From Lachnospiraceae bacterium (lineage in GTDB: Bacteria; Bacillota; Clostridia; Lachnospirales; Lachnospiraceae), in the NCBI GenBank assembly GCA_045603305.1, contig JAZULV010000004.1, positions 1 through 52,041 of the forward strand: DNA of 52,041 nucleotides, read 5' to 3'. The notes beneath the pieces were generated by a model that was given only the letters and a program-made list of their open reading frames with translations, had not been told where the DNA came from and did not search any database. A program made the translations under genes and the position numbers. Shown piece by piece: positions 30,992 to 49,689 of the stretch; position 1 is the first letter of the stretch; every line of letters begins with the position of its first letter.

Positions 30992-30993
30992 AC

Positions 30994-31788: not shown

Positions 31789-31792
31789 AATC

Positions 31793-34294: not shown

Positions 34295-37200
34295 GCTGAT
34301 TCAAGTCTAACAGTCGGTTTGGTAAGACTTTCTAATACAACGTCATATATTTCTTTCATCCTATCGTAATCTTCAAGTTCCTGATTATAGTATTCAGAAG
34401 TAGCAACCATTGATGTAAGAATTCTGTCCATCTCTGCTTTAGCCTCTGCCGTATGAGATCTTTCTCTAAGAACCTTTAATGCTTTATCCTTACTAACTTT
34501 TCTTGACTTCTTAACTAAATCTACCCATCTTTCCTGTGGATAAACACTTCTAAAATAGTCAATATTAGTGGCTCTATATTGAGAGAAGATATGTAAAAAT
34601 CCTTCATTCTTACTACGTCTTCCAAGATGATCAATATCATCCTTGCTACTCTCAAAATCACGCTGTAGCATCAGATTAAATTCTCTTATAACCTTATCAT
34701 CCGGTATTTCACCCTCAGCACGAATTCTCACAGGTACCTGTACCTGCTCTACCGCTAGATAGTTTCTAAATACACTCAAATAGGAAAGCGGAACTCCTTT
34801 TTCAATCAGCAGCCTTTCATTTGGATACAGTGACCATGTATAAACAAAACCAGTCCAATTTATACTTGACTTCATCGCAAAGGCTGCTGCCTGACCTCTA
34901 CAAGACCTCATTGCATTATCAACAATACAATCGAATATATCATCTCCAGGTGCAAAGAAGTGAATATAGTCGTTTTCAATTGCCTTCTTTCTACTAAAGG
35001 TACCATCAATCGACCGGCTATGATGCATTGTGTTTTTATCCTGCTTGTCCTGTCTTAATTCATGTATCTTACTAATAAACTGATTTTGTTTCTGTGCAAA
35101 ATATGAATCCCAATCCGGAGGAATTAGCAATGAATTTTCTGCAGATCTTGTTGAGAAGGAATTATCACTAAAACTAATAACCTCGTCCTTTTCCTCAACA
35201 TCTCTAAACCCTGCAAGCATTGCCCATTGAAGCATCGCATCCGCAAACATTTTATTTTCATTACGATTATAGTATTTAACCAAACTAATCAATTCCTGAT
35301 TCATCGGTCTATAGATATACGCCGCAGTATCAAAATGCTGTTCTTCACGCACTTCTTCTTTTAGCTTTGCTGATCTTTCAATTACATTCTGTATTTCATT
35401 TGTTAATCCAAATCTGAAATCTTTAATAATAGCTGATACTATCGCATTATTAATATCATTCATAATAATCTCTAATCCACTCAGAGAATGATTAAATATT
35501 TTCAATCCGTTGTTCCAGAACTTAAACAGCTCTTCTTCCAATGTTTCTTCTGCATAAGGAACCACAGATACGATAGGTCGTCCACTTTCTCTTCCCATAC
35601 GATCCAGTCGACCTATTCTCTGTTCTATTGCATTTGCATCCCACGGCAGGTCAATATGAACCACATAGTCCGCGCATTGGAAGTTTCTACCTTCTCCACC
35701 TGATTCATCACAAAGCATGATTGTACAATTCTTATCATTTTGAAATTTGCAAACATTAACCTCTAACTCATCAGCAGACATGCCTCTTCTAAAACAACTG
35801 AATCCGTCCTCTGTATAAAAGTCAGCAAGCATTTCTTCATATACTTCAAAAGTCTCTTTATAATTTGTAAATAACACAACTTTTGAATCAGTTGCATATT
35901 CATCAAGATAGTACATCGTCTGCACTATTCTAGAAGTATGTTCTTCTGGCTCATCCAGAACACCTACAATATTCTCGGCAATGTCCTGTTCATACATTTT
36001 CCATCTATGTAGATTTTCCTTCAGGCTATCCGGTATAACCACTCCATCTGCTTCCAAGAACTTAACCTGCTGTTCAAAAGCCCATGGTGAACTAAAGAAC
36101 GTACCAAAAAGAGGCTTGAATATCTTTTCAAATTTCTCTTCCGTTATTTCCTTTTCAGTAATCCATGTCACTAAATCCTGATATGCACCGTATTCATAAA
36201 AGTTTTTATCCGGATCTAAAGCATACGGAAGCGAAGTTAGCTGACGCTCCGGCAAATCTTCAAGTGTTTCTCTTCTATTTCTGATAATATTCTTTTCAAT
36301 CTGATAATTTTCACACAAGTACGAAATAGCAACTTTGAAATGATGAAGGCCCAAATCATCGTCATCAAAATCAGCCTTTTCATACATTTCTTTAAGCATT
36401 TCATCTCCTACGTTTTTATAAAGCTTTTTAAAACCGCTCAGAATATCCTCGTAGAAATCCTCGCTATCTTCATTATCATGCGGATTTTCTTCTGCCTCTA
36501 AAGAGTCTCTAAAAATCTCATCTAAATCCTCAATATTAGACAACACCATTGCTGCCACTTTAGTAATATTTCCTTGTTTTTCAACCAATTCATCAAATTG
36601 CTCTTTAGTACAAGAATCATACTTTTCAGGAAGAATCAAACGAAGTAAATCCAGATAATCTGTTCTCTTCTGCTGAACTGGCGTAGCACTAAGCAAAAGC
36701 AGATTTGTAGTGTTGCAACTCAGTCTATGGAACGCATCATAATATGCCTTATATCTTAACAATCTGTGTGCTTCATCAATTATTGTAAAATCCCATTGTT
36801 CTTTACATTCTCGATCAGCTGCTGTCTCTAGCTCTGCAAATGTAATAAAGTTATTATTCTCATTTTTTCCTTCATACAAGTCGAACTTTAAGAACAGCTC
36901 CGTTTTCCATTGTCCTAACAATGCCCCTGGAACAACAATCAATGCATTAACATCACTATGTCTTGAGAAATACACCTTCAAAACAGATGCTGCTTCGATA
37001 GTTTTACCCATACCAACCTCGTCAGCTAGCATATATCTGCAAACGTCATCCTGAAGACATCTCATAATAGACTTAAGCTGATGCGGCATTAGAAAAATCT
37101 TGCAACCCGCTAATTCTTTAAATCCCATAATAGAATTATCCAGAACATTCATTGTCTTTGTAACAATACTTCTACCAAACAGCCAGCAAGGATTTTGGAA

Positions 37201-37605
37201 TTCATAACCCTGCAACTGAGAAGCCGGATCCACTTTGCCTACCATGAATGGTGCTATAATTCGATTTTCCGGAACACAAATTAATGTTTTGTCATACTCG
37301 TTCTCAATATAATAATCATAGAATTCATCTTCCTTTTTTACACAGGCTACAACCTTATACTTCTCCTTCTCGTAGAGAACAATCGAGCCCACAAAGAACT
37401 GACATCTTTGAACCATTGATGTTGGAAGAGGCGCAGTTTTTGGGAAGTTGTCATAATACACTCGATAATTAAATGGGTCGTTAAAAACAACCTCGACAGT
37501 ATCTGCGTAACTATCTATTTTAGTAATCTGCCCCATCAAAAAATCACGCGGATTAATCATGTCATAATCAATCGGACAGCGTACATACATCTTCTCTAAT
37601 AACAT
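34267..37605 (-). CDS. SNF2/RAD54-family helicase (1112 aa)
   Basis: SNF2_N motifs LADEVGMGKTIEAASVL and TIIDEAHRL. The helicase-C motif is IDLPWDANAIEQRIGRLDRMGRESG. It has roughly 150-aa N-terminal and roughly 450-aa C-terminal extensions. RBS AAAGGATGAG. Confidence 0.85.
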   Translation of the reverse strand: MLLEKMYVRCPIDYDMINPRDFLMGQITKIDSYADTVEVVFNDPFNYRVYYDNFPKTAPLPTSMVQRCQFFVGSIVLYEKEKYKVVACVKKEDEFYDYYIENEYDKTLICVPENRIIAPFMVGKVDPASQLQGYEFQNPCWLFGRSIVTKTMNVLDNSIMGFKELAGCKIFLMPHQLKSIMRCLQDDVCRYMLADEVGMGKTIEAASVLKVYFSRHSDVNALIVVPGALLGQWKTELFLKFDLYEGKNENNNFITFAELETAADRECKEQWDFTIIDEAHRLLRYKAYYDAFHRLSCNTTNLLLLSATPVQQKRTDYLDLLRLILPEKYDSCTKEQFDELVEKQGNITKVAAMVLSNIEDLDEIFRDSLEAEENPHDNEDSEDFYEDILSGFKKLYKNVGDEMLKEMYEKADFDDDDLGLHHFKVAISYLCENYQIEKNIIRNRRETLEDLPERQLTSLPYALDPDKNFYEYGAYQDLVTWITEKEITEEKFEKIFKPLFGTFFSSPWAFEQQVKFLEADGVVIPDSLKENLHRWKMYEQDIAENIVGVLDEPEEHTSRIVQTMYYLDEYATDSKVVLFTNYKETFEVYEEMLADFYTEDGFSCFRRGMSADELEVNVCKFQNDKNCTIMLCDESGGEGRNFQCADYVVHIDLPWDANAIEQRIGRLDRMGRESGRPIVSVVPYAEETLEEELFKFWNNGLKIFNHSLSGLEIIMNDINNAIVSAIIKDFRFGLTNEIQNVIERSAKLKEEVREEQHFDTAAYIYRPMNQELISLVKYYNRNENKMFADAMLQWAMLAGFRDVEEKDEVISFSDNSFSTRSAENSLLIPPDWDSYFAQKQNQFISKIHELRQDKQDKNTMHHSRSIDGTFSRKKAIENDYIHFFAPGDDIFDCIVDNAMRSCRGQAAAFAMKSSINWTGFVYTWSLYPNERLLIEKGVPLSYLSVFRNYLAVEQVQVPVRIRAEGEIPDDKVIREFNLMLQRDFESSKDDIDHLGRRSKNEGFLHIFSQYRATNIDYFRSVYPQERWVDLVKKSRKVSKDKALKVLRERSHTAEAKAEMDRILTSMVATSEYYNQELEDYDRMKEIYDVVLESLTKPTVRLESACFVWMVKK

Positions 37606-37623: not shown

Positions 37624-40287
37624 TTAGTTTCTTCCATATTTGTATGGTTCCAAACAAATCTCTCTTACACCACAGTACTGACACCACTCATCACAAGATT
37701 TTGCACAGCCAGTTGCATTTACTCTGTTACTGCTTAATCTCGCATCGATTTCACCCTGCGGAACATCCTTAAAATACCCAAAGAAGCTTCCATCACCATT
37801 TCCAAGTTGAAGGTAAATGAACTCCTCACGTTTTTTCATATATATGTCATCCGTAGGACTTATCATTGGAAATGTAGTACCATTTTTAAGCACACTCTTT
37901 TGCAAATAGTTTTTTGCATTCGTAATAATATCCATACGCTCTGTGTGCATATCCTTAACAAACTCAAACTTTCGTTCAAGTTTTTTATACTCATCATTTA
38001 AAGTATCAAGCAACACATCCTCGGTAGCAATCTGTCCCTGCAACACAACTCTCGCCACATTCTCCAACAAAATCTCCAAGTATTTTAACAACAGAAAATG
38101 ATCCCTAAAAACTGCCCTCTTCTCAATTGTAGATTCCAACAAAAATCTGTATTTACATATCTTGTATCGGTAGAAATCATATTGTCCATAATTATTCTCT
38201 GTATTAAGTTCAAGGTGCAAATTTCTTACTGCTTTCGGTAAAGTTCCAGTAGGTTTATCTTTTGGATAAACTTTCTGAGCCTCCAATATCTTCAACAAAT
38301 AGAACATCTCATTCTCTTTATCATCAACATTTTTTACATAGCTTAACTTAAACTTTACCCTGTTAAACTGGAGCCCATATATCAACGCATATCTCTTAAA
38401 ATTCTTATACTCTCTTCTAGATTTAACATAAACCTGGTACTTCCAATCAATTGGATCTTGCGCAACTTCAAAGAAAGTCACGTCCAAAGGCCATGGAAAT
38501 CTATCTCTTCGAGTTACGTTCATATCGTTATCTGAAAGGCAGGCAAAATGATATATTATATCCTTATTCTGTTTTCTACTCTTTAAGATATCGCCATCAA
38601 TCTGCTCAAAATCTCTTACTATCCAATTTGCACTTATCCCCTTTTTAGTCTCCTGTTTCAGATAATAAGCCATTGTCTCTTTCAGCACATCAAAAGAACC
38701 TGTAGCGTCAATCTTATCAACCTCTTCCAAGCGAATGAGCACACGCTTTACTACATCTCTAAATTCATCTTCAATATCTTCCGCTTCAAGTATTCTTGTT
38801 TCAAGGAACTCTTTTATTCTCTTATAGAATTTTTTAAAGTTATTCTCTGTATCCTCAAAATCTGCATAAAATAGCTTTGTAATCTGATCCAGCTGCTCCA
38901 ATGCCGCAACTAATGTATCTATTTCCTCTGAAGTAACGTCAAAGTATACCAATCTACTACCTATGCGTTTTTCAGTTACATCTTTCTCAGCTTTTTTAAT
39001 TCGCTTCTTAAGCTTTCCTAATAGGTCAGTTATCTGATCAATGGTTTCCGCACGTACAAAAAATTCTTTTGTTCTGTTGAAAATAGAATAAAGCTTTCCA
39101 GGAGTTTCTTCTTTTATAAATCCTGAATTCAGACATTCTACAATATCATTCATATTTTCAATCTGAATTCCACCTTCCTCTGGATTCCACATATTCGTAA
39201 TGGAAAGAAAAAAATGTCCAATAGGATATGTCAGGAAATGACGTTCACCAAATTGTCCTGGGTAATAAATCTTGAGGATATTGTTTACGCTGTTATTAGC
39301 CGCATAGAATTGCTCTTGCATATAATAAAGCGTTGATCGCCTTACGTCTTTATCTCTTTCTTGGCGTTTCAATGCGTCCTCAAATACACTAGCAACATAG
39401 CTGGCAAACTCCGTATTATTATCAAACTCCATTACTTCAAAAGGACAATCTTCTTCATTTTCTTCCGGATGTCCCTCTATTAAATTTGCCATTCTATCTG
39501 CTAGCAAATTTCCTTCATAGCTATTCGTCAGCAATGGATTAGGCTTAAACTCATTCGTAAACTGACTTTTGATAGGCATGTCAAATGATGAATATACATC
39601 TATCCATGTCTGATATACATTCTTGTACTGCTGCTGATAATTGAACAAAAGAATTACTCTTTTATACTTTGCCACCAATTCAATAGTTTGAAGAATCATT
39701 GGCGAAAACTGATGTACTCCATGAATCACAATGGTATCTAAATCAACAGCACTTATGTCTGCGTCTTCACGTTCTAACTTCATGCCTTCTCGAATCGCAT
39801 TCTCGATTTCAGCTTCTGAAAAATGTCTTTTCAACGTAAAATCCTGAACCAAATCTGATTTTCTTATTATTCTATAAAGCTCTACAAGGTGGCGTTGTTC
39901 CTCTGTCAACAAATCAGTTCGCATTTCATCAAGGCTCATATCTAGTTCAAACAAAATGCGCAAACTATTACTGAGTTGCTTTCTATTGAATCTTAGCGAC
40001 TGCCTAATCTTTTCTGAATTATCCGTAATGTTCAATCTGGAGATAGCCTCATCTATCACGGTGTATTGCTTTATTTTGCATTCACTGCTTTCCCAATATG
40101 CAAAGAGTCCTTTTACCAAGTTCTCAACAGTAGATACTTTACCTGCTGTCATATCTTCGTACGTTCCCATCATTCCGTTTGCCATAGTTTGTGACACACA
40201 GAAATGAGGGCTATTTTTAATGGAATCCCAGTATAATTCTTTATTTATTTCATATGGATTGCTGTATGTATAAATAGAAAACGGCAT
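37624..40287 (-). CDS. Hypothetical 887-aa protein with a C-terminal Cys cluster that resembles the iron-staple of RecB-family nucleases
   Basis: RBS GGAGGTG. It has no P-loop. A lone Cys lies in HFACLSDNDM about 280 aa before the C-terminus, and the last 30 aa read GCAKSCDEWCQYCGVREIC, which contains C-x2-C-x5-C. That arrangement is used by AddB, Cas4 and Dna2 to frame a PD-(D/E)xK domain. The nuclease motifs themselves could not be confidently located by eye. Confidence 0.5.
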   Translation of the reverse strand: MPFSIYTYSNPYEINKELYWDSIKNSPHFCVSQTMANGMMGTYEDMTAGKVSTVENLVKGLFAYWESSECKIKQYTVIDEAISRLNITDNSEKIRQSLRFNRKQLSNSLRILFELDMSLDEMRTDLLTEEQRHLVELYRIIRKSDLVQDFTLKRHFSEAEIENAIREGMKLEREDADISAVDLDTIVIHGVHQFSPMILQTIELVAKYKRVILLFNYQQQYKNVYQTWIDVYSSFDMPIKSQFTNEFKPNPLLTNSYEGNLLADRMANLIEGHPEENEEDCPFEVMEFDNNTEFASYVASVFEDALKRQERDKDVRRSTLYYMQEQFYAANNSVNNILKIYYPGQFGERHFLTYPIGHFFLSITNMWNPEEGGIQIENMNDIVECLNSGFIKEETPGKLYSIFNRTKEFFVRAETIDQITDLLGKLKKRIKKAEKDVTEKRIGSRLVYFDVTSEEIDTLVAALEQLDQITKLFYADFEDTENNFKKFYKRIKEFLETRILEAEDIEDEFRDVVKRVLIRLEEVDKIDATGSFDVLKETMAYYLKQETKKGISANWIVRDFEQIDGDILKSRKQNKDIIYHFACLSDNDMNVTRRDRFPWPLDVTFFEVAQDPIDWKYQVYVKSRREYKNFKRYALIYGLQFNRVKFKLSYVKNVDDKENEMFYLLKILEAQKVYPKDKPTGTLPKAVRNLHLELNTENNYGQYDFYRYKICKYRFLLESTIEKRAVFRDHFLLLKYLEILLENVARVVLQGQIATEDVLLDTLNDEYKKLERKFEFVKDMHTERMDIITNAKNYLQKSVLKNGTTFPMISPTDDIYMKKREEFIYLQLGNGDGSFFGYFKDVPQGEIDARLSSNRVNATGCAKSCDEWCQYCGVREICLEPYKYGRN

Positions 40288-40290
40288 CCC

Positions 40291-43200
40291 TTACACCTCC
40301 AGAAACTTACTCCAGCTCATATTGGATTTCTTGTCTGTATCCTTCATCCAGATACAATTTCTTATTGCTCTCGTCAATGCGACATAAAGTATTCTTGCCT
40401 CTTCACATATTCTCTGTCCGATTTCTTCCTGAGAATCATAATTTGAATTACAATCTTTTTTATTCTCATCAATCTTAATTGAGTACGCTAACTTCGAATT
40501 ACTATAATTGACATCTGTGTTTGCTTTTTTTAAATTATCAATAGCTTGACCAGTGAAAGGTAATATTACTGTCCCATATTCCAATCCCTTAGCCTTATGC
40601 ACGGTCGTGCAAAGAAATTTGATTCCTGTTTGATCTTCTGCAACAGCTCTTGCCAATTCTTGCTGCTTAGTTAAAATATTAATTTGAATGGAATTAGCAA
40701 TGACTGTTAATGTTAAATAATCAACACTATATGATTTAATTATTTTTTCAATCAAAAGCTCATAATTAGATTTATAGAATCTTTGCTTATCAACATCCTC
40801 GCTATACTTATTCCATGGTTTAAGCGTTTCAAATATCGCCTTCAGAACAACAAGAACTGGATTAGCCTGGACATACGCAACCAACTCATTCCAAGTCTTA
40901 TCCATCCTCGCCATAAAATACGTATCTAAAGCTTCAACCAATTTTTTTGTTTGAGAACTCTTGTCTTCATTCTGAAGTCCTTGATACAAGAGTGGCATAT
41001 CTACATAATTGGATTCCATAAAGTTAACAAGATACACCGGATTATCGGGATTCGTTAACGCCATCAAAAGCTTACAAAAATCAATGGTCGAATCTAACTG
41101 ATACAGGTCACCGCCGACCTTTGTTTCAATTTCAACCTCTTCATCCAACTCCTTGCATCCCTTTATAATTGTTTCAATCTGCCAATTTTCTCTTACAAGA
41201 ATGGCAATTGTCTTTTCCTCTTTGCTAAGCTTTCTCCTTTTCTCTAATTCAATAATTTTAGCTTTTTCTCTCTTGAGTAAACCAAGTAAAACTTCTAACT
41301 GTTCATCATTCTTTCCATGAAATGGAATACATTCAAACAATTCTTCCTCATTAGCACCGCCATTTAAATTACTCACTAAATGATCTGAATCATAAGTATA
41401 TGGAAGCCAAGCACTTGCTCCCATTCCTTGAAAGATTTCATCCATTATTTCAAGTAGTCTGGAATCTGTTCGATAATTCGTATTAATGGTATGCTCTTCC
41501 CATTTATCGGGAGTTGCATTAAGTCTCTTAAATGCACTTATTGTTGCCCCTCTGAAACGATAAATACTTTGCTTCAAGTCGCCAACAACAAACAAATTAC
41601 AGTTCTTACCAATAAGCTGCTGAATCTTCAAAAATGAATCTATTTGCGCATCATCAGTATCCTGAAATTCGTCAATAAAAATATATTTGTAATCTAAATG
41701 TGTTTTCTCCTTGTCTTTCTGGTTAACAACATCATTCAGAATTATCATCGTTTCTCGTAAATCTATCTTATTGCTTTCTTGAATCTTTGTTTCATACTCA
41801 AGTTCCGCAGCAATAATGACCTCCATTATTATTTCATTGAAGAAAGAAAGTAATCCTGGAGCCTGCCCCAACTCGTCTTCCCTAATCTTTTTTATATCAA
41901 TGCTCTTGTTGTAGAGCTGGTTTGAAAATTCTACTAGCATTCTTCTAAACTGATACAAAGGAAGTTTTATTTCATTTATAAAATTAGGATTTTCGGCTTC
42001 CTTCTTTGCAATAAAATCATTGAGATATCTCTCATATATCTGCTCTTTTACGTAGTCTCCAGACGTGATTGCAAAATTATCTCCTAAGCCCATTTGCATG
42101 GATGCTTCCTTAATAATTTCACGAGCAAACTTATGGATAGTTGAAATACGCATGAAGTCGATATCTTCTATATATTTCAAAAATTTCGGATTCGATGTTA
42201 GTACAAAATAATTAATAAACATCTGCTTAAGTCTATTCTTCATGTTGTCAGCTGCATCGTTTGTAAAAGTAACCATCGCAACATCATCAATCAGATTAAC
42301 TGTAGGATTCTCATATTTATTGCAGAGAAAAGCAATTCTTGAAACCATGGAATATGTTTTTCCGGTGCCTGCTCCTGCTCTAACCAAGATGTTTTTTTCC
42401 GGAGAGGCATGTTCAATAAAATACTGCTGAATATTGAAAGGGCTTTTTTCTGCCAATCTCTCCAACAACTGTCTTTCTTCTGGTGTACATTCTCCTTCAT
42501 ATATTGTTGCGGATTCATCAAGTATATCTGCCAAATCTTCTACAACATACAATTCAAAATTAAATATTCTAAATACATTATTCTTTACTGAAAACTCATT
42601 GTCTGCATCTTTTTTTAATTTAAGATTATTCTTCTCTGCTAATATTCCCTTCTCGTTGAGCTCTCCCTCTAAAACATAAAGAATAGAGTCAGCCATATCT
42701 TCAGATGATACGAAAACAACCGTCTTTGTTCCTTTCAAATATCCATCTACAATATCGTGAATTTGCCTCTTCACAAACTTCTTAGTATTAGCTACAACCA
42801 CAGAATAAGGAACCTGATTGCCAAGTTCAAATGGCTTTTTCATCTGAAAATGTGGTTCAAAATGCTGCCTGATTTTTCCCATCAAATCATCATCCATTTC
42901 CGCGTGAGGAATGGATTTACACTGATTATATGCGTTAAGCAACTTGTCACCTAAACGCATAGAATCTGACAAATCTTCCTTGAAAATCGTTAATGTTTCT
43001 TCAGATACAATGTCTAACCTTTTTTCGTAGTATTCCTTCTTTGAAATAAATGGATAACATACTAAATCAAATATTAATGGACTTACATTGTATTTATCAC
43101 TTATCAAGTTTAATAATCCAAATCTGTAGGCTCTAGCTTGCTTCTTAGGCGATTTTTCAGGTTTTTCATATCCCTGAACAATAATCTCATCAACACCGGC

Positions 43201-43407
43201 TACATCAAAAATACTCTCTGCAAGCCAACCCTTCACCTCGATAATGATCATTCCAACATTCTTCATAAGAATGCAGAAATCAAACTCTCTTCCATTTACT
43301 TCACGGCCATTGTATACAATAGCCTCTCCCGGAAGATTATCAGAAAGACTCTCCCATACTTTTCCTTCGCCTTTATATTCAGGTTTTTTATCAATCATTA
43401 TAGCCAT
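40291..43407 (-). CDS. UvrD/PcrA-type SF1 helicase with an N-terminal NERD (nuclease-related) domain
   Basis: The track starts on TTG. An ATG at about 43407 (MAIMIDKKPEY) follows a GGGGGT RBS. The N-terminus (FDFCILMKNVGMIIIEVKGW) is a NERD/PD-(D/E)xK-like EVK motif. Helicase motif I is RAGAGTGKTYSM, motif II is IFIDEFQDTD, and motifs V-VI are CTTVHKAKGLEYGTV ... YVALTRA. Confidence 0.8.
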   Translation of the reverse strand: MAIMIDKKPEYKGEGKVWESLSDNLPGEAIVYNGREVNGREFDFCILMKNVGMIIIEVKGWLAESIFDVAGVDEIIVQGYEKPEKSPKKQARAYRFGLLNLISDKYNVSPLIFDLVCYPFISKKEYYEKRLDIVSEETLTIFKEDLSDSMRLGDKLLNAYNQCKSIPHAEMDDDLMGKIRQHFEPHFQMKKPFELGNQVPYSVVVANTKKFVKRQIHDIVDGYLKGTKTVVFVSSEDMADSILYVLEGELNEKGILAEKNNLKLKKDADNEFSVKNNVFRIFNFELYVVEDLADILDESATIYEGECTPEERQLLERLAEKSPFNIQQYFIEHASPEKNILVRAGAGTGKTYSMVSRIAFLCNKYENPTVNLIDDVAMVTFTNDAADNMKNRLKQMFINYFVLTSNPKFLKYIEDIDFMRISTIHKFAREIIKEASMQMGLGDNFAITSGDYVKEQIYERYLNDFIAKKEAENPNFINEIKLPLYQFRRMLVEFSNQLYNKSIDIKKIREDELGQAPGLLSFFNEIIMEVIIAAELEYETKIQESNKIDLRETMIILNDVVNQKDKEKTHLDYKYIFIDEFQDTDDAQIDSFLKIQQLIGKNCNLFVVGDLKQSIYRFRGATISAFKRLNATPDKWEEHTINTNYRTDSRLLEIMDEIFQGMGASAWLPYTYDSDHLVSNLNGGANEEELFECIPFHGKNDEQLEVLLGLLKREKAKIIELEKRRKLSKEEKTIAILVRENWQIETIIKGCKELDEEVEIETKVGGDLYQLDSTIDFCKLLMALTNPDNPVYLVNFMESNYVDMPLLYQGLQNEDKSSQTKKLVEALDTYFMARMDKTWNELVAYVQANPVLVVLKAIFETLKPWNKYSEDVDKQRFYKSNYELLIEKIIKSYSVDYLTLTVIANSIQINILTKQQELARAVAEDQTGIKFLCTTVHKAKGLEYGTVILPFTGQAIDNLKKANTDVNYSNSKLAYSIKIDENKKDCNSNYDSQEEIGQRICEEARILYVALTRAIRNCIWMKDTDKKSNMSWSKFLEV

Positions 43408-43428
43408 GACGTTTACCCCCAATGTACA

Positions 43429-44247
43429 TTACTCAAAGAAGTCCTCATTAATCTTATACACTGTATAGGTCTGAACCTTTTCAAGTCCAATACCATACTT
43501 AATCATCAATTCTGCGAGCAAATCCCCATCTATAAGTTTCAAACTTTTCTGCTGCTGTTTTTCAGCATAATTTCTTGCTTCTTTTGTAAATGAAGACGTT
43601 GTAATAAACACACCTTTTTGAACATCCTGCATAGCACCAACAAAAGCCTGTAACAACGGTCTTCCAACTGTATTACTACTATCATTTCTTTTTGCCTGAA
43701 TATATATCTTACTTAATCCAAGCTTGTCCTCATATATTACGCCGTCAATACCACCATCATGAGATTTACCTAATACACGACCCGACAATTCATCCGAGCC
43801 ATATCCCATTTCAAGTAACAAATTAACCACTAACCGTTCAAAGAAACTTGGGTGACATTCCATAATATGATCCAAAATTTGTCGTTTCATGTTACTCTTA
43901 TAGAAATGATACGTACGATCTATCTTTTCTTCTGGTAACAAGTCGTCCTCTGACACCAGTTTTTCTTTCTCCTCTTCCTTTTCAGTCGAGTTCTCTTGTC
44001 CTTCCTTTACTAATGCATAAAGATTCCTTGTTCCCTTCTGTCCTACAATATGAAAATATTTAACCGGCGATGCACCAGGGAAGTCCAACCCCTCACAATG
44101 ACAACGTAGTTTCGCATTGACTGCCGCCTCTGGATCCTTAGCCCCAAACTGGTATAAGTTCCTCTCTTTAATTTTTAAATACGCTTCTTTATATGTTAAA
44201 CTCTCATTTTCTTTTAGAACTTCAACCAATGCATCTACAATTCTCAT
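43429..44247 (-). CDS. Mrr-like restriction endonuclease (N-terminal winged-helix plus Mrr_cat PD-(D/E)xK)
   Basis: 272 aa with RBS GAAGGTGA. The catalytic region is GGIDGVIYEDKLGLSKIYIQAKR, a D...QxK Mrr-type core. It lies 11 nt downstream of dndA in the same orientation. Confidence 0.7.
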   Translation of the reverse strand: MRIVDALVEVLKENESLTYKEAYLKIKERNLYQFGAKDPEAAVNAKLRCHCEGLDFPGASPVKYFHIVGQKGTRNLYALVKEGQENSTEKEEEKEKLVSEDDLLPEEKIDRTYHFYKSNMKRQILDHIMECHPSFFERLVVNLLLEMGYGSDELSGRVLGKSHDGGIDGVIYEDKLGLSKIYIQAKRNDSSNTVGRPLLQAFVGAMQDVQKGVFITTSSFTKEARNYAEKQQQKSLKLIDGDLLAELMIKYGIGLEKVQTYTVYKINEDFFE

Positions 44248-44258
44248 ACGTTCACCTT

Positions 44259-45452
44259 CTACACTTCTTCTCTTAATACCTTTATCAGCTGATTAATATC
44301 TGCTTCTGTCGTATGTTTATTAAGCGATATTCTTAATACCTTTGAAACCTTGTCTTTCAACCCCAATGCAGTTATTACATATGACGGTTCTCCTGCACTA
44401 CATGCAGAACCTGCTGATAATGCTATTCTGTCGCTTATATGCTTTATAAACCTTTCATTATTGAAATCCTTCTTATCGACCACTATACTTATAATTCCGG
44501 GCAATCTCTTCTCTGATAGGTTTGTTAATGATATATCTGGTAACGTCTTTAATCCAGCAACAAGCATCTGATCAAACTGTAAAATCTTCTGTTCATTTGT
44601 ATCGAAATCCCTCATTGCAATGTCTGCAGCTTTACCAAAACCTACAATATTATGAACTGCTAAAGTCCCAGCCCTAAACCCATTTTCCTGTTCACCACCA
44701 TGCATAAATGCAGTAATTGGAGGAATACCATACGCATCACTTTTAATAAATGCTGCTCCTATTCCTTTGGGGCCATAAATCTTGTGCGCTGAACACGAAG
44801 CAAAATCCAATCCCATCGCATGAACATCAATAGCCATTTTCCCTATTGCTTGTGTTAGGTCAGAATGAATTGCAATACCCTTCATTGAACACATCTTAGC
44901 AATTCCAGAGACATCACTAATAGTACCAACTTCATTATTCACATAGATAACAGAAACCATTGCGGTGTTATTCTTTAGCGCTTCCTCTATAGTTGTAACA
45001 AGTATTTCTCCCGTTTCAGTAATACCAACAAAAGAAGCTTCATATCCTCTGTCTACAGATTTTCTCCCACCAAACAATGTTACAGTAGGATCATTATTAG
45101 AATACAAATCACCATTAAGGAATTTGCACGTATTCAATGTGGCCTTATGTTCTGCAACAGATGTAATGATATGGTTCTTTCCATCTCCGTAGTAACGTCG
45201 ATAATCCATATAACCTTTAATAATAAAATTTGTGCTTTCTGTTGCACCTGCTGTAAAAATTATTTCTTCTGGATTAGCTCCCAACAGTTTTGCAACCTGA
45301 ACACGTGCATTTTCTACTGCATTATGAGCGTTAACTGCCTTGCAATAATACTTACTTGAAGGATTGCCATATTCTTCTCGGAGATAAGGGAGCATTGCCT
45401 CCAACACTTCCTCATCCACCGGAGAAGTTGCACTATTATCCAAATAAATCAT
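44259..45452 (-). CDS. dndA: Cysteine desulfurase (NifS/IscS-like), the DndA role in DNA phosphorothioation
   Basis: 397 aa starting MIYLDNSATSPVDEEVLEAMLPYLREEYGNPSS. It has the PLP-lysine region and the active-site Cys loop LSAGSACSAG. Its start overlaps the dndE stop (ATGA). Confidence 0.85.
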   Translation of the reverse strand: MIYLDNSATSPVDEEVLEAMLPYLREEYGNPSSKYYCKAVNAHNAVENARVQVAKLLGANPEEIIFTAGATESTNFIIKGYMDYRRYYGDGKNHIITSVAEHKATLNTCKFLNGDLYSNNDPTVTLFGGRKSVDRGYEASFVGITETGEILVTTIEEALKNNTAMVSVIYVNNEVGTISDVSGIAKMCSMKGIAIHSDLTQAIGKMAIDVHAMGLDFASCSAHKIYGPKGIGAAFIKSDAYGIPPITAFMHGGEQENGFRAGTLAVHNIVGFGKAADIAMRDFDTNEQKILQFDQMLVAGLKTLPDISLTNLSEKRLPGIISIVVDKKDFNNERFIKHISDRIALSAGSACSAGEPSYVITALGLKDKVSKVLRISLNKHTTEADINQLIKVLREEV

Positions 45453-45829
45453 ACAGTATCACCTACTCCTAATACTTGAAGTATGTATTTATCCATGCTT
45501 CCAGCATGATTATACATATCAAGTAGTAATTCACTACCCCTATCAATGTGTGCCTTAACATACTTCGGAAAAAATTCTTCCTCCGGCAAATATCTTCCTT
45601 CAACTTCTTCAATCAAAACCTTGAAATATGTTTCATTATCACCTGTAATTGTCTGCCTGTTAAGATCCAATCCGTCTGAATCAGATTCATAATCTGCAAC
45701 TGAAGAATTCTCTTTCAAAGACCACGCTATTGCATGTTTTACCAAAGTATATGGTTTATAGTTTGTTCTATTTTCTAACTCTTGGAATATTTCCTGAGTT
45801 CTCTTTGATGTTTTTAATCTGAATATCAT
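45449..45829 (-). CDS. dndE: DndE-like small protein
   Basis: 126 aa starting MIFRLKTSKRTQEIFQELENRTNYKPYTLVKHAIAWSL. Its size and its position between dndD and the desulfurase fit DndE. Confidence 0.7.
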   Translation of the reverse strand: MIFRLKTSKRTQEIFQELENRTNYKPYTLVKHAIAWSLKENSSVADYESDSDGLDLNRQTITGDNETYFKVLIEEVEGRYLPEEEFFPKYVKAHIDRGSELLLDMYNHAGSMDKYILQVLGVGDTV

Positions 45830-45832
45830 TGC

Positions 45833-47977
45833 TTACACCTCAAAAAAATAATGTTGTTCTACAGTAGTTCTGTTTTGACTCTCATCATTTATAAGAAGAT
45901 ATTCCTTAGCAATATATGGCTTTATAATCTCGTAATACTCTTCATTTATTTCTTCATCGGTTGAAAGAATTACTACCTGTTTGCTGATATTAGGGAAGAA
46001 CTTCTCTGATATCTCTTTTCTATGGTTAGCATCGATACGCGCATAAGGAGTATCAATAACAAACGGTATATCCTTGCCCGACATTTCTATAATTGCCCAA
46101 TACAATGACAATATAAATATCTGACGTTCACCCTTTGACAAGCGACTAATATCTATACGCTTATACAAATCATAGCTACCACGCTGCGTGTCACACTCTA
46201 TTGCCTGTTGCAATTGTAGAACAGTCTTCGCCTTATACTTTTCACAAAGGATCTTCATTCCCTGCTTTCCAATTTCAAATGCAAACACTTCTTTCCCAAG
46301 ATTCTTCATTAAATAAAGTAATTCTGTGGCACTGTACTTAACATTTTGATAAAGGTTGAATTGAAAATCATCCTCTATTTCGATATGTGTAATTAAATTA
46401 TTCTTTCTATAAATATGCTGTAATTTCTCTACTATCAGTTTTTCAAGTTTACATTTGATCGACTCCGATTTATTATCAAGCATCTTTCCCATCATTTGAG
46501 ACAAGCCCATACTCAATTCAAATATATGTTTATTCTGAGCGTTATCCTTAATACCTTGAAATGCTCGGTCTCTTTGCTGAATTGCTACTGCCAGTTCCTC
46601 TTTCAAAGTTGTTAAACTAATCTCTGCATCATGAATTCTTGACAAAATCTCTTCTTTCTTTTTTAGCAGCGCATTTTCTTTTTCCGCAAACTTCCCTGCA
46701 TCTTCGTCTGTCATCGCACTCTTCAAAATGCGGTTGATTTCCATAGTTCTATCAGCAGCTTCCCGTCTTTTTTCAACCAACTCTACCATTTCCGCAACTT
46801 CAAAATCATCAATCGCAGAAATCATTGCGCTTACTCGACCGTAGTCTTCCTTAGATAGGTCATGCACAGGCTGTGCACCTTCTTTAAAGCCCTTCGGTTT
46901 AAACTTCCTAAGCAAGAATTCCATCAATGCATCAACAGTATCATCACTAACTTCCTGATTCGCATTAAGTGTATTCTGAATTTCCTGTCTCTTTAATTTT
47001 TGCTGAACATAATAATAGATTTCACCTTTTTCCTCAAAATCTAATTGTTCAGAAATTTTTCCTGTAAAATCGCGAAGGATATAAAAAGGCATCAATCCTT
47101 CAACAAACATTTTGATTTTTGTAAGGGTTTCCGTTTTAATATGTTCAGCTTCTGAATACTCTTTCAGAAGTGACTGTCGTTCGATTTCTGTTATTCCTCC
47201 GGCATTCTTAAAGGCACTCTCAACCTCAATCAATTCCGTTTCAATTTTCTCTAACTCACTTCTATCCGCTACAAGTTGAGATTCTAACGCTGAATAGTTT
47301 GTCTCTATTTCCTCTGCATTTCTACGCAGCTCTTCATATTGTGTATATATTTCTTCTTCATCATTACTTAAAGCTTTTCCCGCATATCCTGTTGTATACT
47401 TTCTAATAATTTCAAAGATATCTAATCCACACAAAGTATAAACTGCATTTTTGACGTAAGAGTTGTATGTGCTCGTCGAGAAAATGCTTCCAACTTCCTC
47501 ACCATCGAACAAGAAAAATTCAAACAAGTCCGGTGGAATCATACCCTGTAAATAGTTCTGGAAATATGACAACTCTTGATTATCTAATATACGACCTTCT
47601 GTTTTAACATAATACTTTTCTTCTAATTTGTGTTTTGTATAATCCCACGCTCTTGTTATCTCGTATTCTTTAACTTCTCGCTCAACCATCAAAGATACAA
47701 ATATCTGAACTCTTGATTCGACAACATCTTTCTGAAAAGATTTAGAATTAATGCAATCCTTGATTTTTGCAATATACGTAGGATTAACACCCACATAACC
47801 AAATGATAATGGTCCATATAGCGCTATCTTAATAGCAGAAAATAACGAGGTCTTTCCCGCTCCATTCTTTCCACCAATCAGAATAATGTTTTTACTATTA
47901 TCATCACTTGTGAAGTCAAACTCATTCAATCCTTCATAGGAGTTGAAATTATATAACACTATTTTATTTATTTTCAT
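45833..47977 (-). CDS. dndD: DndD, SMC/ABC-like ATPase of the DNA phosphorothioation system
   Basis: The track start is TTG. An ATG at about 47977 (MKINKIVLYNF) follows AAGGAG. Walker A is IGGKNGAGKTSLFSAI. There are long coiled-coil segments. The C-terminus has LSKGERQ (signature-like), PFVIDTP (Walker B) and ARID (D-loop). Confidence 0.85.
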   Translation of the reverse strand: MKINKIVLYNFNSYEGLNEFDFTSDDNSKNIILIGGKNGAGKTSLFSAIKIALYGPLSFGYVGVNPTYIAKIKDCINSKSFQKDVVESRVQIFVSLMVEREVKEYEITRAWDYTKHKLEEKYYVKTEGRILDNQELSYFQNYLQGMIPPDLFEFFLFDGEEVGSIFSTSTYNSYVKNAVYTLCGLDIFEIIRKYTTGYAGKALSNDEEEIYTQYEELRRNAEEIETNYSALESQLVADRSELEKIETELIEVESAFKNAGGITEIERQSLLKEYSEAEHIKTETLTKIKMFVEGLMPFYILRDFTGKISEQLDFEEKGEIYYYVQQKLKRQEIQNTLNANQEVSDDTVDALMEFLLRKFKPKGFKEGAQPVHDLSKEDYGRVSAMISAIDDFEVAEMVELVEKRREAADRTMEINRILKSAMTDEDAGKFAEKENALLKKKEEILSRIHDAEISLTTLKEELAVAIQQRDRAFQGIKDNAQNKHIFELSMGLSQMMGKMLDNKSESIKCKLEKLIVEKLQHIYRKNNLITHIEIEDDFQFNLYQNVKYSATELLYLMKNLGKEVFAFEIGKQGMKILCEKYKAKTVLQLQQAIECDTQRGSYDLYKRIDISRLSKGERQIFILSLYWAIIEMSGKDIPFVIDTPYARIDANHRKEISEKFFPNISKQVVILSTDEEINEEYYEIIKPYIAKEYLLINDESQNRTTVEQHYFFEV

Positions 47978-49355: not shown

Positions 49356-49689
49356 CGTTACTACCTCGATGCTGAGCGACTTGGCTTAGTAGTCCAAGAC
49401 TCAACTCTTTCCCTTCGTCATCCATTTGCTTTATATAACTTAATATTTTGCGTTCAACATCATCTGCATCATCATTAAAAAATTCTCTTCCCACTAATTG
49501 ATCAAGTGAAATATTATATATGTCCGCAATCTTTTTAAGCTGTTCAATATCTGGGGTCGTAACTCCCCTCTCAATGTTGCTTATCACTTGCTGTGATACA
49601 TTCAGCCTTTCAGCCAGCTCCATTTGCTTAAGTTTTTTGCTTTTTCTTATTTCTGCTAATCGTTTTCCTATAGTCTGCATATCTTTCAT
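49342..49689 (-). CDS. XRE-family HTH regulator overlapping the start of dndC. It is the likely regulator of the array and stands in place of dndB.
   Basis: 115 aa with the HTH IGKRLAEIRKSKKLKQMELAERLNVSQQVISNIERG. Its 3' end overlaps dndC by 14 nt. Confidence 0.75.
   Translation of the reverse strand: MKDMQTIGKRLAEIRKSKKLKQMELAERLNVSQQVISNIERGVTTPDIEQLKKIADIYNISLDQLVGREFFNDDADDVERKILSYIKQMDDEGKELSLGLLSQVAQHRGSNDGNE

What the first reader, a model, noticed from the sequence alone, without database searches (positions are those of the whole stretch)
37624..43422. AddAB-like two-protein helicase-nuclease pair: NERD-UvrD helicase plus an 887-aa protein with a C-x2-C-x5-C iron-staple
The 1038-aa protein has a PD-(D/E)xK-like NERD module N-terminal to a complete SF1 UvrD core (motifs I, II and VI are present). 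Its stop codon is embedded in the RBS of the 887-aa gene (GGAGGTGTAAGGGATG), which implies a 1:1 complex.

The partner has no ATPase motifs. It ends in GCAKSCDEWCQYCGVREIC, with a lone upstream Cys about 280 aa earlier. That spacing is what AddB, Cas4 and Dna2 use to clamp a RecB nuclease fold with a 4Fe-4S cluster.

A helicase-active AddA-like subunit plus a helicase-dead, Fe-S nuclease AddB-like subunit inside a PT-modification operon would be a DNA-end-processing defence effector that has not been described in this context.
Basis: partly seen in the sequence, partly recalled or inferred. Interest (0 to 1): 0.8.

Follow-up and report, generated by a model that had tools for sequence, protein, structure and literature searches.

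The report
AddAB-like helicase pair in defence operon
Two tightly coupled genes in a gut-bacterium defence island encode a distant cousin of the AddAB/RecBC DNA-end-processing machine: an active helicase carrying a NERD nuclease, plus an unannotated partner that folds like AddB and keeps its four-cysteine clamp but seems to have lost its own nuclease core.

Summary
The observation mostly holds. Two adjacent minus-strand genes encode a 1038-aa NERD + SF1 UvrD-type helicase (40291-43407) and an 887-aa protein (37624-40287). The helicase stop lies inside the partner's ribosome-binding site, and this coupling is kept in 14 related loci.

Four cysteines are invariant in 123 diverse homologues: C711, C869, C872 and C878. 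The fourth is C711, in a Cas4/AddB-type "CP[YH][RK][FY]" helix 158 aa upstream. It is not the Cys about 280 aa upstream (C583, 37% conserved).

The clamped domain is predicted all-helical and has no conserved D...(D/E)xK. The partner is therefore probably not a nuclease. The catalytic nuclease is most likely the NERD domain (D43/E57/K59 invariant) on the motor subunit.

The pair recurs in defence islands, most often between dnd phosphorothioation genes and a DpdE/F/G/H-like module. I found no description of it in the literature searched. I class it as a new variant of a known kind.

The parts
40291..43407 (-). Motor-nuclease subunit, 1038 aa from ATG (the ORF extends to TTG at 43422). It has an N-terminal NERD PD-(D/E)xK nuclease, a roughly 200-aa linker and a complete SF1A UvrD/AddA-type helicase. 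It has no C-terminal RecB nuclease.
   Evidence: Pfam NERD, UvrD-helicase, AAA_19 and UvrD_C. Best NCBIfam match is recB at 1.1e-45, far below the model cut-off. Best PDB sequence match is AddA 3u44_A at 1e-18.
43063..43377 (-). NERD nuclease domain (aa 11-115). The putative catalytic residues D43, E57 and K59 ('FDF...IIIEVKGW') are at about 43231-43281.
   Evidence: Pfam PF08378, E 1.4e-7. D43, E57 and K59 are invariant in 10 orthologues of 32-92% identity.
40363..42441 (-). SF1 helicase core (aa about 323-1015), carrying motif I GAGTGKT, motif II DEFQD, motif III GDxKQxIYRFRGA, motif V TVHKxKGLEY and motif VI YVAxTRA.
   Evidence: invariant columns G345-T351, D579-D585, R617-A621, T934-K938, R1013.
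40285..40300 (-). Translational-coupling junction GGAGGTGTAAGGGATG. The helicase stop (40293-40291) lies inside the Shine-Dalgarno sequence of the partner gene, whose ATG is at 40287.
   Evidence: In the 14 of 15 related loci where the helicase end could be located, the stop lies 1-3 nt before the partner start or overlaps it by 4-7 nt.
37624..40287 (-). Partner subunit, 887 aa (stop codon at 37624-37626). It is an AddB/RecC-like inactivated SF1-helicase scaffold with a C-terminal four-Cys domain. The family has at least 535 clusters at 50% identity and matches no Pfam, NCBIfam or PADLOC model.
   Evidence: no hits. (535 representatives). (pLDDT 90.2, pTM 0.84). (AddB first, RecC second).
38218..40287 (-). 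Dead helicase-like region (aa 1 to about 690). It has alpha/beta RecA-like lobes but no Walker A. 'IVIHGxHQF' occupies the position where SF1 motif II (DEFQD) would be expected; this placement is my inference. W228, Y232, G565, P600 and S649 are invariant.
   Evidence: One member gives a weak ADDB_N Pfam match over this motif region (P0174, E 0.042).
37627..38184 (-). C-terminal staple domain (aa 702-887). It is all-alpha in the models, is bracketed by the invariant Cys residues, and is interpreted as a degenerate AddB/Cas4/Dna2-type nuclease domain.
38155..38157 (-). Codon of C711, the first staple cysteine. It lies in the motif [FY]x[LIV]-C-P-[YH]-[RK]-[FY]-x-L (here YKICKYRFLL).
   Evidence: Present in 123 of 123 homologues. 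Motif consensus. The PDDEXK_1 N-terminal segment (HMM positions 11-64) matches this region in P0249 at 21.4 bits.
37654..37683 (-). Codons of C869-x2-C872-x5-C878 (CQYCGVREIC), followed by a conserved Leu.
   Evidence: Each Cys is present in 123 of 123 homologues. This stretch aligns to the Cys tails of Cas4 and AddB.
43429..44247 (-). Mrr_cat (type IV-like) restriction endonuclease gene between dndA and the helicase. It is a variable accessory gene.
   Evidence: It is absent from L008, L009, L012 and L013.
44259..49689 (-). Upstream modification genes: HTH regulator (49342-49689), dndC (47964-49355), dndD (45833-47983), dndE (45449-45829) and dndA (44259-45452).
   Evidence: PADLOC DndC 2e-139, DndD 4e-122, DndE 1e-11, DndA 2e-119.
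27213..37605 (-). Downstream Dpd-like module: DpdE-like SNF2 helicase (34267-37605), DpdF-like RecQ/DEAD helicase (31793-34294), DpdG-like 264 aa (30994-31788), DpdH-like ATPase (27872-30997) and a 221-aa protein (27213-27878).
   Evidence: NCBIfam DpdE 6e-107, DpdF 6e-138 and DpdH 6e-100, all below the equivalog cut-offs. PADLOC results. An orthologue of the 264-aa protein carries PF28110 DpdG. The gene order is conserved down to about 30% identity.

Best explanation
The two genes encode the subunits of an AddAB/RecBC-class heterodimeric helicase-nuclease that has been recruited to, and has diverged within, anti-phage defence islands.

Subunit 1 (1038 aa) is the only catalytic subunit. It is an active SF1A 3'-5' motor most like AddA/RecB, and its nuclease is an N-terminal NERD PD-(D/E)xK domain in place of the C-terminal RecB nuclease.

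Subunit 2 (887 aa) is a catalytically dead AddB/RecC-type scaffold. It has two RecA-like lobes with no ATP-binding motifs and a small C-terminal domain descended from the AddB/Cas4/Dna2 iron-staple nuclease. That domain keeps the four cluster-ligating cysteines (C711, C869, C872, C878), most likely holding a [4Fe-4S] cluster as a structural clamp. It has lost the beta-sheet catalytic core.

By analogy with AddB and RecC, I infer that the partner binds the DNA end, splits the strands and guides them, while the motor translocates and NERD cuts.

In this window the pair is co-transcribed with dndCDEA (phosphorothioate self-marking) and a DpdE/F/G/H-like sensing and translocation module. I infer that it is the DNA-degrading effector of a modification-dependent restriction system.

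Shown by computation: the folds, the motifs, their conservation and the gene linkage. Inferred: the heterodimer, the Fe-S cluster, DNA-end loading and the effector role.
For: Partner fold:
- The AF2 model has pLDDT 90.2 and pTM 0.84.
- Foldseek against PDB puts AddB chains at ranks 1-5 (E 1.6e-11 to 1.2e-10) and RecC at ranks 6-7, ahead of UvrD, Rep and PcrA.
- A Walker A-like motif occurs in 1 of 123 members.

Staple:
- C711, C869, C872 and C878 are each present in 123 of 123 members.
- The first-Cys motif CP[YH][RK][FY] and a C1-C2 spacing of mostly 124-190 aa are Cas4-like.
- The C-terminal profile's best PDB sequence hit is Cas4 (E 0.041), and AddB is fourth (E 0.57).
- 12 of 44 members hit PDDEXK_1 and 2 hit Cas_Cas4. 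No other Pfam family is hit by more than 2 members.

Dead nuclease core:
- The domain is all-helical in two independent models.
- There is no conserved D/ExK.
- PDDEXK_1 matches are confined to HMM positions 11-64 or 181-247.
- One family member has a PIN_4 nuclease fused to its C-terminus.

Active subunit:
- NERD D43/E57/K59 and helicase motifs I-VI are invariant.
- AddA is the best PDB sequence match and recB the best NCBIfam match.

Coupling:
- The stop codon lies inside the RBS.
- The gap is 1-3 nt, or the overlap 4-7 nt, in the 14 related loci where it could be read.
- A NERD-UvrD gene lies immediately upstream of every distant homologue that had enough flanking sequence.

Defence context:
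- Dnd, Mrr, Dpd-like and GmrSD genes surround the pair.
- The island has low GC and sits beside an integrase.
- Distant loci carry WYL, DrmE_C, GmrSD and AAA_15/21 genes.
Against: - No physical evidence shows that the two proteins interact.
- I could not read model coordinates, so I have not verified that the four Cys converge in the model.
- Sequence-level similarity of the partner to AddB and Cas4 is marginal. E values are 0.04-0.6 for the profile, and the best single-member PDDEXK_1 score is 21.4 bits against a cut-off of 22.
- D786 (90%), D/E783 and R/K820 are conserved in the C-terminal domain, so some unrecognised activity cannot be excluded.
- The pair also occurs without Dnd or Dpd genes (L021), so its role in the PT system may be accessory rather than that of the central effector.
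- A Mrr nuclease and a GmrSD nuclease in the same operon could be the primary effectors.
Confidence: 0.6

Rival explanations
1. One reading: the 887-aa protein is an active Fe-S-stapled RecB-family nuclease like B. subtilis AddB. The complex would then have two nucleases, NERD and the partner's C-terminal domain, one for each DNA strand.
For: The four-Cys staple signature is invariant. Weak PDDEXK_1 and Cas4 matches exist. UniProt auto-names a 92%-identical orthologue 'PD-(D/E)XK endonuclease-like domain-containing protein'. D786 is about 90% conserved, with D/E783 and R/K820 nearby.
Against: There is no conserved (D/E)xK. The segment between the Cys residues is confidently all-alpha in two models, with no strands to carry a PD-(D/E)xK site. 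The Pfam matches never cover the catalytic middle of the profile. One lineage has added a PIN nuclease to the partner, which suggests the domain itself is not the nuclease.
Confidence: 0.12
2. The four invariant cysteines bind zinc, or form a small redox or structural Zn site, and do not hold a [4Fe-4S] cluster. The resemblance to the iron staple would then be convergent or vestigial.
For: Cys4 sites are commonly Zn sites. The domain has lost the nuclease core that the staple normally clamps. Structural similarity of the isolated domain to AddB and Dna2 is only moderate.
Against: The pattern is exact: one distal Cys in a CP[YH][RK][FY] helix plus C-x2-C-x5-C-L at the extreme C-terminus. From my own knowledge of these families, that pattern is the signature of the Cas4/AddB/Dna2 [4Fe-4S] site. 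Cas4 and AddB are the sequence hits recovered over these segments. The whole protein is AddB-like.
Confidence: 0.18
3. The pair is not a defence effector. It would be a mobile-element-borne or housekeeping double-strand-break repair or recombination enzyme (an AddAB paralogue) that merely hitch-hikes in defence islands, or that protects the island's host from self-inflicted breaks.
For: Its closest structural relatives are repair enzymes. A published survey noted unfused UvrD plus Cas4-like operons in Clostridiales in non-defence contexts (PMC5704561). The pair occurs apart from Dnd/Dpd genes in L021.
Against: The same operon-like array, with overlapping or near-abutting genes running from dndC to the GmrSD gene, is conserved down to about 30% identity. 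Every context examined carries defence genes. NERD is typical of conflict systems (PMC10853773 and PMC12839542). The sequences score far below the AddA/AddB/RecB equivalog cut-offs.
Confidence: 0.08
4. The two proteins do not form a stable AddAB-like heterodimer. The 887-aa protein would instead be a non-enzymatic adaptor or sensor that bridges the helicase to the DpdE/F/G/H-like complex, or that binds DNA on its own.
For: Profile-profile comparison detects no sequence similarity between the two subunits. There is no interaction data. The pair is embedded in a large multi-helicase operon.
Against: The two genes stay adjacent and coupled even where the Dpd-like genes are absent or on the other strand (L021, L016, L015, L024). 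From my own knowledge of these complexes, all solved proteins with this fold (AddB, RecC, AdnA/AdnB) act as obligate partners of an SF1 motor.
Confidence: 0.1

Closest known systems
AddAB helicase-nuclease (Bacillus subtilis; PDB 3U4Q, 3U44, 4CEH-4CEJ)
   Different: The motor's nuclease is an N-terminal NERD domain, not a C-terminal RecB domain. The partner is about 280 aa shorter. Unlike B. subtilis AddB (from my own knowledge), it lacks a Walker A. Its stapled domain is Cas4-sized (158 aa between Cys1 and Cys2), all-alpha, and lacks D...(D/E)xK. The sequences fall far below the AddA model cut-off and do not hit AddB models at all. The genomic context is defence, not housekeeping.
RecB-RecC of RecBCD (PDB 1W36)
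   Same: RecC is the second-best structural match. As proposed here, RecC is dead as both helicase and nuclease and serves as a strand-splitting and strand-guiding scaffold for one catalytic motor-nuclease subunit. Its helicase ancestry is visible only in structure, and the same is true here.
   Different: RecC has no Cys staple (from my own knowledge). RecB's nuclease is C-terminal. There is no RecD-like third subunit adjacent here.
Cas4 and UvrD-Cas4-like fusions in defence loci (PF01930 / PF12705; Hudaiberdiev et al. 2017, PMC5704561)
   Same: The four-Cys spacing and the flanking motifs are Cas4-like. That paper already links SF1 UvrD-type helicases to Cas4-like domains in type III R-M and Dcm/Vsr defence contexts, and to unfused operons in Clostridiales.
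   Different: Here the Cas4-like remnant sits on a roughly 700-aa dead-helicase scaffold, not on the active helicase and not as a small stand-alone protein. It appears catalytically degenerate. The active nuclease is NERD.
Dpd (7-deazaguanine) restriction module DpdD-K
   Same: The genes immediately downstream are DpdE-, DpdF-, DpdG- and DpdH-like, in the canonical order.
   Different: The modification module is Dnd (phosphorothioate), not DpdABC. The scores fall below the NCBIfam equivalog cut-offs. No DpdJ (a YprA-family helicase, bioRxiv 10.1101/2025.09.15.676423) or DpdK was found. The NERD-UvrD plus AddB-like pair occupies the helicase/nuclease effector slot.
Helicase-nuclease defence heterocomplexes such as Gabija GajAB and Hachiman HamAB
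   Same: These are also defence-island modules that pair an SF1 or SF2 helicase with a nuclease function. GajB models hit the UvrD core here.
   Different: In Gabija and Hachiman the nuclease is the separate partner (the OLD/TOPRIM protein GajA, or HamA). Here the nuclease is fused to the helicase, and the partner is a dead AddB-like scaffold. No GajA or HamA homologue is present.

Membership tests
AddAB (AddA subunit) | Active SF1A UvrD-type helicase core with motifs I-VI | tested here: met
   Pfam UvrD-helicase 7.8e-44. Motifs are invariant in 10 orthologues. AddA is the best PDB sequence hit.
AddAB (AddA subunit) | C-terminal RecB-family PD-(D/E)xK nuclease domain | tested here: not met
   The protein ends about 25 aa after motif VI. 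Its only nuclease domain is the N-terminal NERD.
AddAB (AddA subunit) | Scores above the NCBIfam AddA equivalog cut-off | tested here: not met
   addA_Gpos scores 110.6 bits against a cut-off of 707.65. recB scores 156.3 bits against 696.
AddAB (AddB subunit) | Helicase-like fold with no helicase activity, partnering an SF1 motor | tested here: met
AddAB (AddB subunit) | One distal Cys plus a C-terminal C-x2-C-x5-C that ligate a [4Fe-4S] 'iron staple' | tested here: inconclusive
   The cysteine pattern is met and invariant: C711, C869, C872, C878. The metal identity cannot be tested in silico. The Cys1-Cys2 spacing is 158 aa, against about 320 aa in AddB (the AddB figure is from my own knowledge).
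AddAB (AddB subunit) | Catalytic RecB-type nuclease core (D...(D/E)xK on a beta-sheet) inside the staple | tested here: not met
   No motif is conserved. The domain is all-alpha in two models. PDDEXK_1 hits miss the catalytic middle.
AddAB (AddB subunit) | Sequence membership (AddB / ADDB_N / PDDEXK_1 models above threshold) | tested here: not met
   The window protein has no hit. Family members score at most 21.4 bits on PDDEXK_1 (cut-off 22) and E 0.042 on ADDB_N.
AddAB / RecBCD | Stable heterodimer, DNA-end loading and Chi-regulated resection | not testable with these tools
   No complex prediction was possible (1925 aa exceeds the 1200-aa limit). Biochemistry is needed.
Cas4 family (PF01930) | A roughly 200-aa stand-alone PD-(D/E)xK exonuclease with a four-Cys cluster | tested here: not met
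   The Cys pattern and spacing fit. However, the domain is the C-terminus of an 887-aa protein, lacks catalytic residues and lacks a beta-core.
NERD nuclease (PF08378) | PD-(D/E)xK core with a conserved D...ExK | tested here: met
   32.5 bits against a cut-off of 22.1. D43, E57 and K59 are invariant.
Dpd restriction system (DpdD-K) | A DpdE/F/G/H/I/J/K gene set coupled to DpdA/B/C 7-deazaguanine modification | tested here: not met
   DpdE-, DpdF-, DpdG- and DpdH-like genes are present but score below the equivalog cut-offs. None of the proteins I scanned in or around the operon matched DpdA-D or DpdI-K models. The modification genes are dndCDEA.
Dnd phosphorothioation system with DndFGH restriction | dndBCDE(A) plus dndFGH | tested here: not met
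   dndC, dndD, dndE and dndA are present. There is no DndB, DndG or DndH. The only trace of DndF is a P-loop match at E 5e-4 on the DpdH-like protein.

The most novel reading that the evidence does not exclude
The dead-helicase partner may read the unwound strand the way AddB and RecC read Chi, but for a self-mark: the Dnd phosphorothioate, or the Dnd target motif. The pair would then be a processive NERD exonuclease that is switched off by an epigenetic backbone modification rather than by a sequence. On this reading the retained Fe-S domain acts as the DNA-end clamp. This would be the first RecBCD-class machine gated by DNA modification, and it would explain how PT systems discriminate self when only a minority of sites are modified.
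Probability: 0.1. Interest if true: 0.85.

Novelty: new variant of a known kind. Interest (0 to 1): 0.6.

Why it matters
From my own knowledge, AddAB and RecBCD are usually cast as repair enzymes that also degrade phage DNA and that phages inhibit. This finding points to a dedicated, diverged member of that class that belongs to defence islands.

- The partner family is large (at least 535 clusters at 50% identity) and has no annotation in Pfam, NCBIfam or PADLOC.
- The design is unusual: the nuclease has moved to the motor's N-terminus as a NERD domain, and the partner keeps only the cysteine staple of its former nuclease.
- It supplies a candidate DNA-degrading effector for dnd clusters in gut Lachnospiraceae that lack dndFGH.
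- It shows that a Dpd-type restriction chassis can be wired to phosphorothioate marking instead of 7-deazaguanine.
- It offers a natural test of what the iron staple does once catalysis is gone.

Each of these points can be tested by expression, spectroscopy and phage or plasmid challenge.

Tried and rejected
- Single-sequence searches of the 887-aa protein against Pfam, NCBIfam, PADLOC and PDB sequences found nothing meaningful. Only profiles and structure were informative.
- Profile-profile comparison of the partner family with its own helicase partner found no similarity (probability 0.2%). A recent duplication origin is therefore not detectable.
- The full-length family profile against PDB sequences gave only Cas4 at E 0.4. 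The C-terminal profile improved this to E 0.041.
I replaced it with the A2 scan and a scan of ten full-length members.
I rejected it because it is a Cys in only 37% of homologues.
- I considered the conserved region 555-670 (RxFEQIDG...YHF..LSD) as a hidden PD-(D/E)xK site. I rejected it because it lies outside the stapled segment and belongs to the second RecA-like lobe in the model.
- I considered membership of Gabija, Nhi/Hna-type single-chain helicase-nucleases and DpdJ/K. No partner or model matches supported any of them.
- Literature searches for Dnd + Dpd, NERD-UvrD + AddB and related terms found no description of this module. The library is incomplete, so this is absence of evidence only.

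Full report
**1. The observation**

The region holds two minus-strand ORFs: 40291-43422 (1043 codons from TTG; 1038 aa from the ATG at 43407) and 37624-40287 (887 aa). The junction reads ...CTGGAGGTGTAAGGGATGCCG... on the coding strand. The helicase TAA (40293-40291) lies between a GGAGG Shine-Dalgarno sequence and the partner's ATG (40287).

The larger protein carries Pfam NERD (aa 11-115), UvrD-helicase, AAA_19 and UvrD_C. The smaller protein hits nothing in Pfam, NCBIfam, PADLOC or PDB sequences. Its C-terminus is ...GCAKSCDEWCQYCGVREICLEPYKYGRN.

**2. The partner is a large, unannotated and very consistently built family**

An exhaustive HMMER search of 1.84 billion cluster representatives found 535 relatives at E ≤ 1e-3, of which 200 were at E ≤ 1e-30. 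Close relatives are from Lachnospiraceae, including Blautia, Lacrimispora, Acetatifactor and Agathobacter. NCBI calls them hypothetical proteins. UniProt auto-labels one as 'PD-(D/E)XK endonuclease-like domain-containing'.

I aligned 123 mostly full-length members, with identity to the query as low as 23% (A1). The only invariant residues are W228, Y232, G565, P600, S649 and four cysteines: C711, C869, C872 and C878.

**3. Which cysteines matter**

- C869-x2-C872-x5-C878 is present in every full-length member.
- The fourth invariant Cys is C711, 158 aa upstream. It sits in the consensus [FY]-x-[LIV]-C-P-[YH]-[RK]-[FY]-x-L-[ED].
- C861 and C865 in the tail are not conserved.
- The Cys1-Cys2 spacing across the family is mostly 124-190 aa. 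From my own knowledge, that is the size of a Cas4 domain, whereas AddB has about 320 aa.

**4. Fold of the partner**

AlphaFold2 on A1 gave a confident model (mean pLDDT 90.2, pTM 0.84).

- Foldseek against the PDB ranks AddB chains first to fifth (E 1.6e-11 to 1.2e-10; TM-score normalised to the query 0.46-0.49). RecC is sixth and seventh. UvrD, Rep, PcrA and AdnAB follow.

The N-terminal 690 residues therefore form an SF1 helicase-like scaffold. It is catalytically dead. A Walker-A-like string occurs in 1 of 123 members, at a non-homologous site. 'IVIHGxHQF' occupies the place where I would expect motif II.

As with RecC, the helicase ancestry is invisible in sequence. hhalign of the family against its own partner helicase finds nothing. 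One member gives a weak ADDB_N match over the motif-II-like region (E 0.042).

**5. The C-terminal 'staple' domain is related to the AddB/Cas4/Dna2 nuclease domain but looks degenerate**

Evidence for relatedness:

- A profile of residues 676-887 (A2) has Cas4 (8d3l_I) as its best PDB sequence hit at E 0.041. AddB (3u44_B, residues 1053-1132) is fourth at E 0.57. Both alignments run over the Cys tail.
- 12 of 44 members individually hit Pfam PDDEXK_1 (best E 6.5e-4) and 2 hit Cas_Cas4. No other family is hit by more than 2 members.
- In full-length members these hits map either to HMM positions 11-64, the first-Cys helix (P0249, 21.4 bits against a cut-off of 22), or to positions 181-247, the Cys tail.

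Evidence for degeneracy:

- No Pfam hit covers the catalytic middle of the PDDEXK_1 profile.
- Residues 702-887 are helical, with no beta-strands. This holds in both the full-length model and a separate domain-only model (pLDDT 87.6).
- No D...(D/E)xK is conserved. Only D786 (90%), D/E783, R/K820, Y/H816 and an FPF motif stand out.
- One lineage has appended a PIN_4 nuclease to the partner's C-terminus (P0162).

My reading is that the cysteine clamp was kept and the nuclease core was lost. The partner would then resemble RecC in function while keeping AddB's staple. Whether the site holds [4Fe-4S] or Zn cannot be decided in silico. I also could not access the model coordinates to check that the four Cys converge.

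**6. The motor subunit**

- Its best PDB sequence match is AddA (E 1e-18), ahead of UvrD, RecB, PcrA and GajB.
- Its best NCBIfam match is recB (1.1e-45), followed by addA. Both are far below the equivalog cut-offs.
- Helicase motifs I, II, III, V and VI and the NERD D43...E57-x-K59 are invariant in ten orthologues of 32-92% identity.
- The protein stops about 25 residues after motif VI, so it has no C-terminal RecB nuclease.

The complex therefore has one obvious nuclease active site. It sits at the opposite end of the motor from where AddA and RecB carry theirs.

**7. Linkage**

In the 14 of 15 related loci where the helicase end could be located, the stop lies 1-3 nt before the partner's start or overlaps it by 4-7 nt. 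I looked up the contigs of seven distant homologues (24-31% identity). In the six with enough upstream sequence, a NERD-UvrD gene of 1008-1096 aa lies immediately upstream (L013, L015, L016, L021, L023, L024).

L016 even carries a second, tandem pair. It consists of a 2120-aa UvrD-domain protein and an 888-aa distant paralogue of the partner (hhalign probability 99.85%). This is strong comparative evidence for an obligate two-gene unit. The 1:1 complex itself remains an inference.

**8. Context**

In the window the pair sits in a roughly 24-kb array of same-strand genes that abut or overlap. In order, they are:

1. HTH regulator
2. DndC, DndD, DndE, DndA
3. Mrr_cat nuclease
4. NERD-UvrD helicase
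5. 887-aa partner
6. DpdE-like SNF2 helicase
7. DpdF-like RecQ/DEAD helicase
8. DpdG-like protein (264 aa)
9. DpdH-like ATPase
10. 221-aa protein
11. GmrSD

. The 264-aa protein's orthologue carries PF28110 DpdG.

The order from helicase to DpdH is conserved down to about 30% identity. In L013 it sits next to a canonical dndBCDEA operon on the other strand. Mrr is variable. The array lies in a low-GC segment (35-36%, against 39-44% in the flank) next to a Tn916-type integrase and housekeeping genes (gatA/gatB, metK, murA).

The pair also occurs in other settings:
- without Dnd or Dpd genes (L021, with WYL, AAA_13 and AGOG-domain genes);
- with HSP70-like, DrmE_C, AAA_15/21 and GmrSD genes and dnd on the opposite strand (L024);
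- with HSP70-like genes and DpdF/G/H on the opposite strand (L015).

It is therefore a portable defence-island module. In this lineage it is wired between a PT-marking module and a Dpd-type chassis.

**9. Mechanism proposed**

Computation shows the folds, the active-site conservation, the dead sites, the Cys invariance and the gene coupling. The rest is inferred.

I infer that the two proteins form a heterodimer in which the partner binds and splits a DNA end and guides the strands, as AddB and RecC do. The SF1A motor would pull 3'-5' on one strand and the NERD domain would cut. From my own knowledge of the AddAB literature, the AddB Fe-S cluster is required for binding broken DNA. A retained staple on a nuclease-dead domain fits a purely structural, end-binding role.

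In this operon the DpdE/F/G/H-like proteins would sense or translocate on unmarked DNA, and the pair would degrade it. Mrr and GmrSD would add modification-dependent back-up.

The alternatives are an active partner nuclease, Zn instead of Fe-S, a repair role, or no stable heterodimer. Each is scored in the rival-explanations section with its refuting experiment.

**10. Comparison and novelty**

The pair works like AddAB or RecBC but fails membership of AddAB on several defining features:
- the nuclease position in the motor;
- the catalytic core in the partner;
- all curated model thresholds.

The details are in the membership table. UvrD-Cas4 fusions and unfused UvrD plus Cas4-like operons in defence settings have been described (PMC5704561). 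The architecture here has not: NERD-motor, dead AddB-like scaffold and a vestigial staple.

Recent surveys did not mention this module or a Dnd + DpdE-H combination in the passages my term searches returned. The surveys were of Dnd neighbourhoods (PMC10853773), BREX-related systems (PMC12839542), YprA/Dpd systems (bioRxiv 2025.09.15.676423) and gut PT systems (PMC12914056). The searchable library is incomplete, so prior description elsewhere cannot be excluded.

I rate it a new variant of a known kind, with interest 0.6. It would be moderately surprising to specialists, and it opens clear experiments on the function of the iron staple and on how dndFGH-less PT systems restrict DNA.

Noticed in passing
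window 49807-50889 (+): A 360-aa protein with a PAPS_reduct domain (Pfam 1.1e-24; weak BrxP/SspD PADLOC hits) and faint N-terminal zinc-ribbon-like Pfam matches (E 0.05-2.6, all below cut-off). It is transcribed divergently from the dnd operon, in the place where dndB usually sits. No DndB was found. It is conserved next to dndC in L001, L002, L006-L009, L011 and L012. This would be a second PAPS-reductase-type protein besides DndC.
   Followed up: partly
window 43429-44247 (-): A Mrr_cat (type IV-like) restriction endonuclease gene lies between dndA and the helicase. It is present in most close loci but absent from L008, L009, L012 and L013, so it is an exchangeable accessory gene.
   Followed up: partly
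window 25393-27186 (-): A GmrSD-type (GmrSD_N + GmrSD_C) modification-dependent nuclease closes the operon-like array. It matches the PADLOC models 'Orf5' and 'HEC-06'. GmrSD_N genes also lie near the pair in L024, and a weak GmrSD-like match (33% identity over about 80 aa) lies between dndE and dndA in L003.
   Followed up: no
window 22827-23924 (-) and 24000-52041: A Tn916-type integrase (Integrase_DNA + Phage_integrase) lies at the boundary between housekeeping genes (gatA/gatB, metK, murA; GC 39-44%) and the defence array (GC 34-37%). ARAGORN found no tRNA gene anywhere in the window. The array is probably a horizontally acquired island that runs off the right end of the window.
   Followed up: partly
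L019 1332-5651 and L020 728-5047 (protein P0162): A 1439-aa family member carries a C-terminal PIN_4 nuclease domain after the Cys tail. This amounts to a natural experiment in which a nuclease has been added to the partner.
   Followed up: no
L016 1-12829: Two helicase-plus-partner pairs occur in tandem: a 2120-aa UvrD-domain protein with an 888-aa distant paralogue of the partner (hhalign probability 99.85%), then a 538-aa UvrD protein, then the NERD-UvrD helicase with a 942-aa partner.
   Followed up: partly
L015 7074-8732 and L024 3785-5236: HSP70/MreB-like ATPase genes lie close to the pair in two unrelated distant loci. In L015 there are also two small genes of about 210 aa that recur in L016. 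This may be a further module variant.
   Followed up: no
window 37624-40287 (-), residues C30 and C385 of the 887-aa protein: Two further cysteines in the dead-helicase region are about 90% conserved (113 and 111 of 123 sequences). Their significance is unknown; a second metal site or a structural role are possibilities.
   Followed up: no
L021 4697-6793: A 698-aa protein with DUF7664 and AGOG (8-oxoguanine glycosylase-like) domains lies immediately upstream of the pair. This locus has no Dnd or Dpd genes in the 19 kb examined. It may be a different DNA-lesion or modification sensor feeding the same effector.
   Followed up: no
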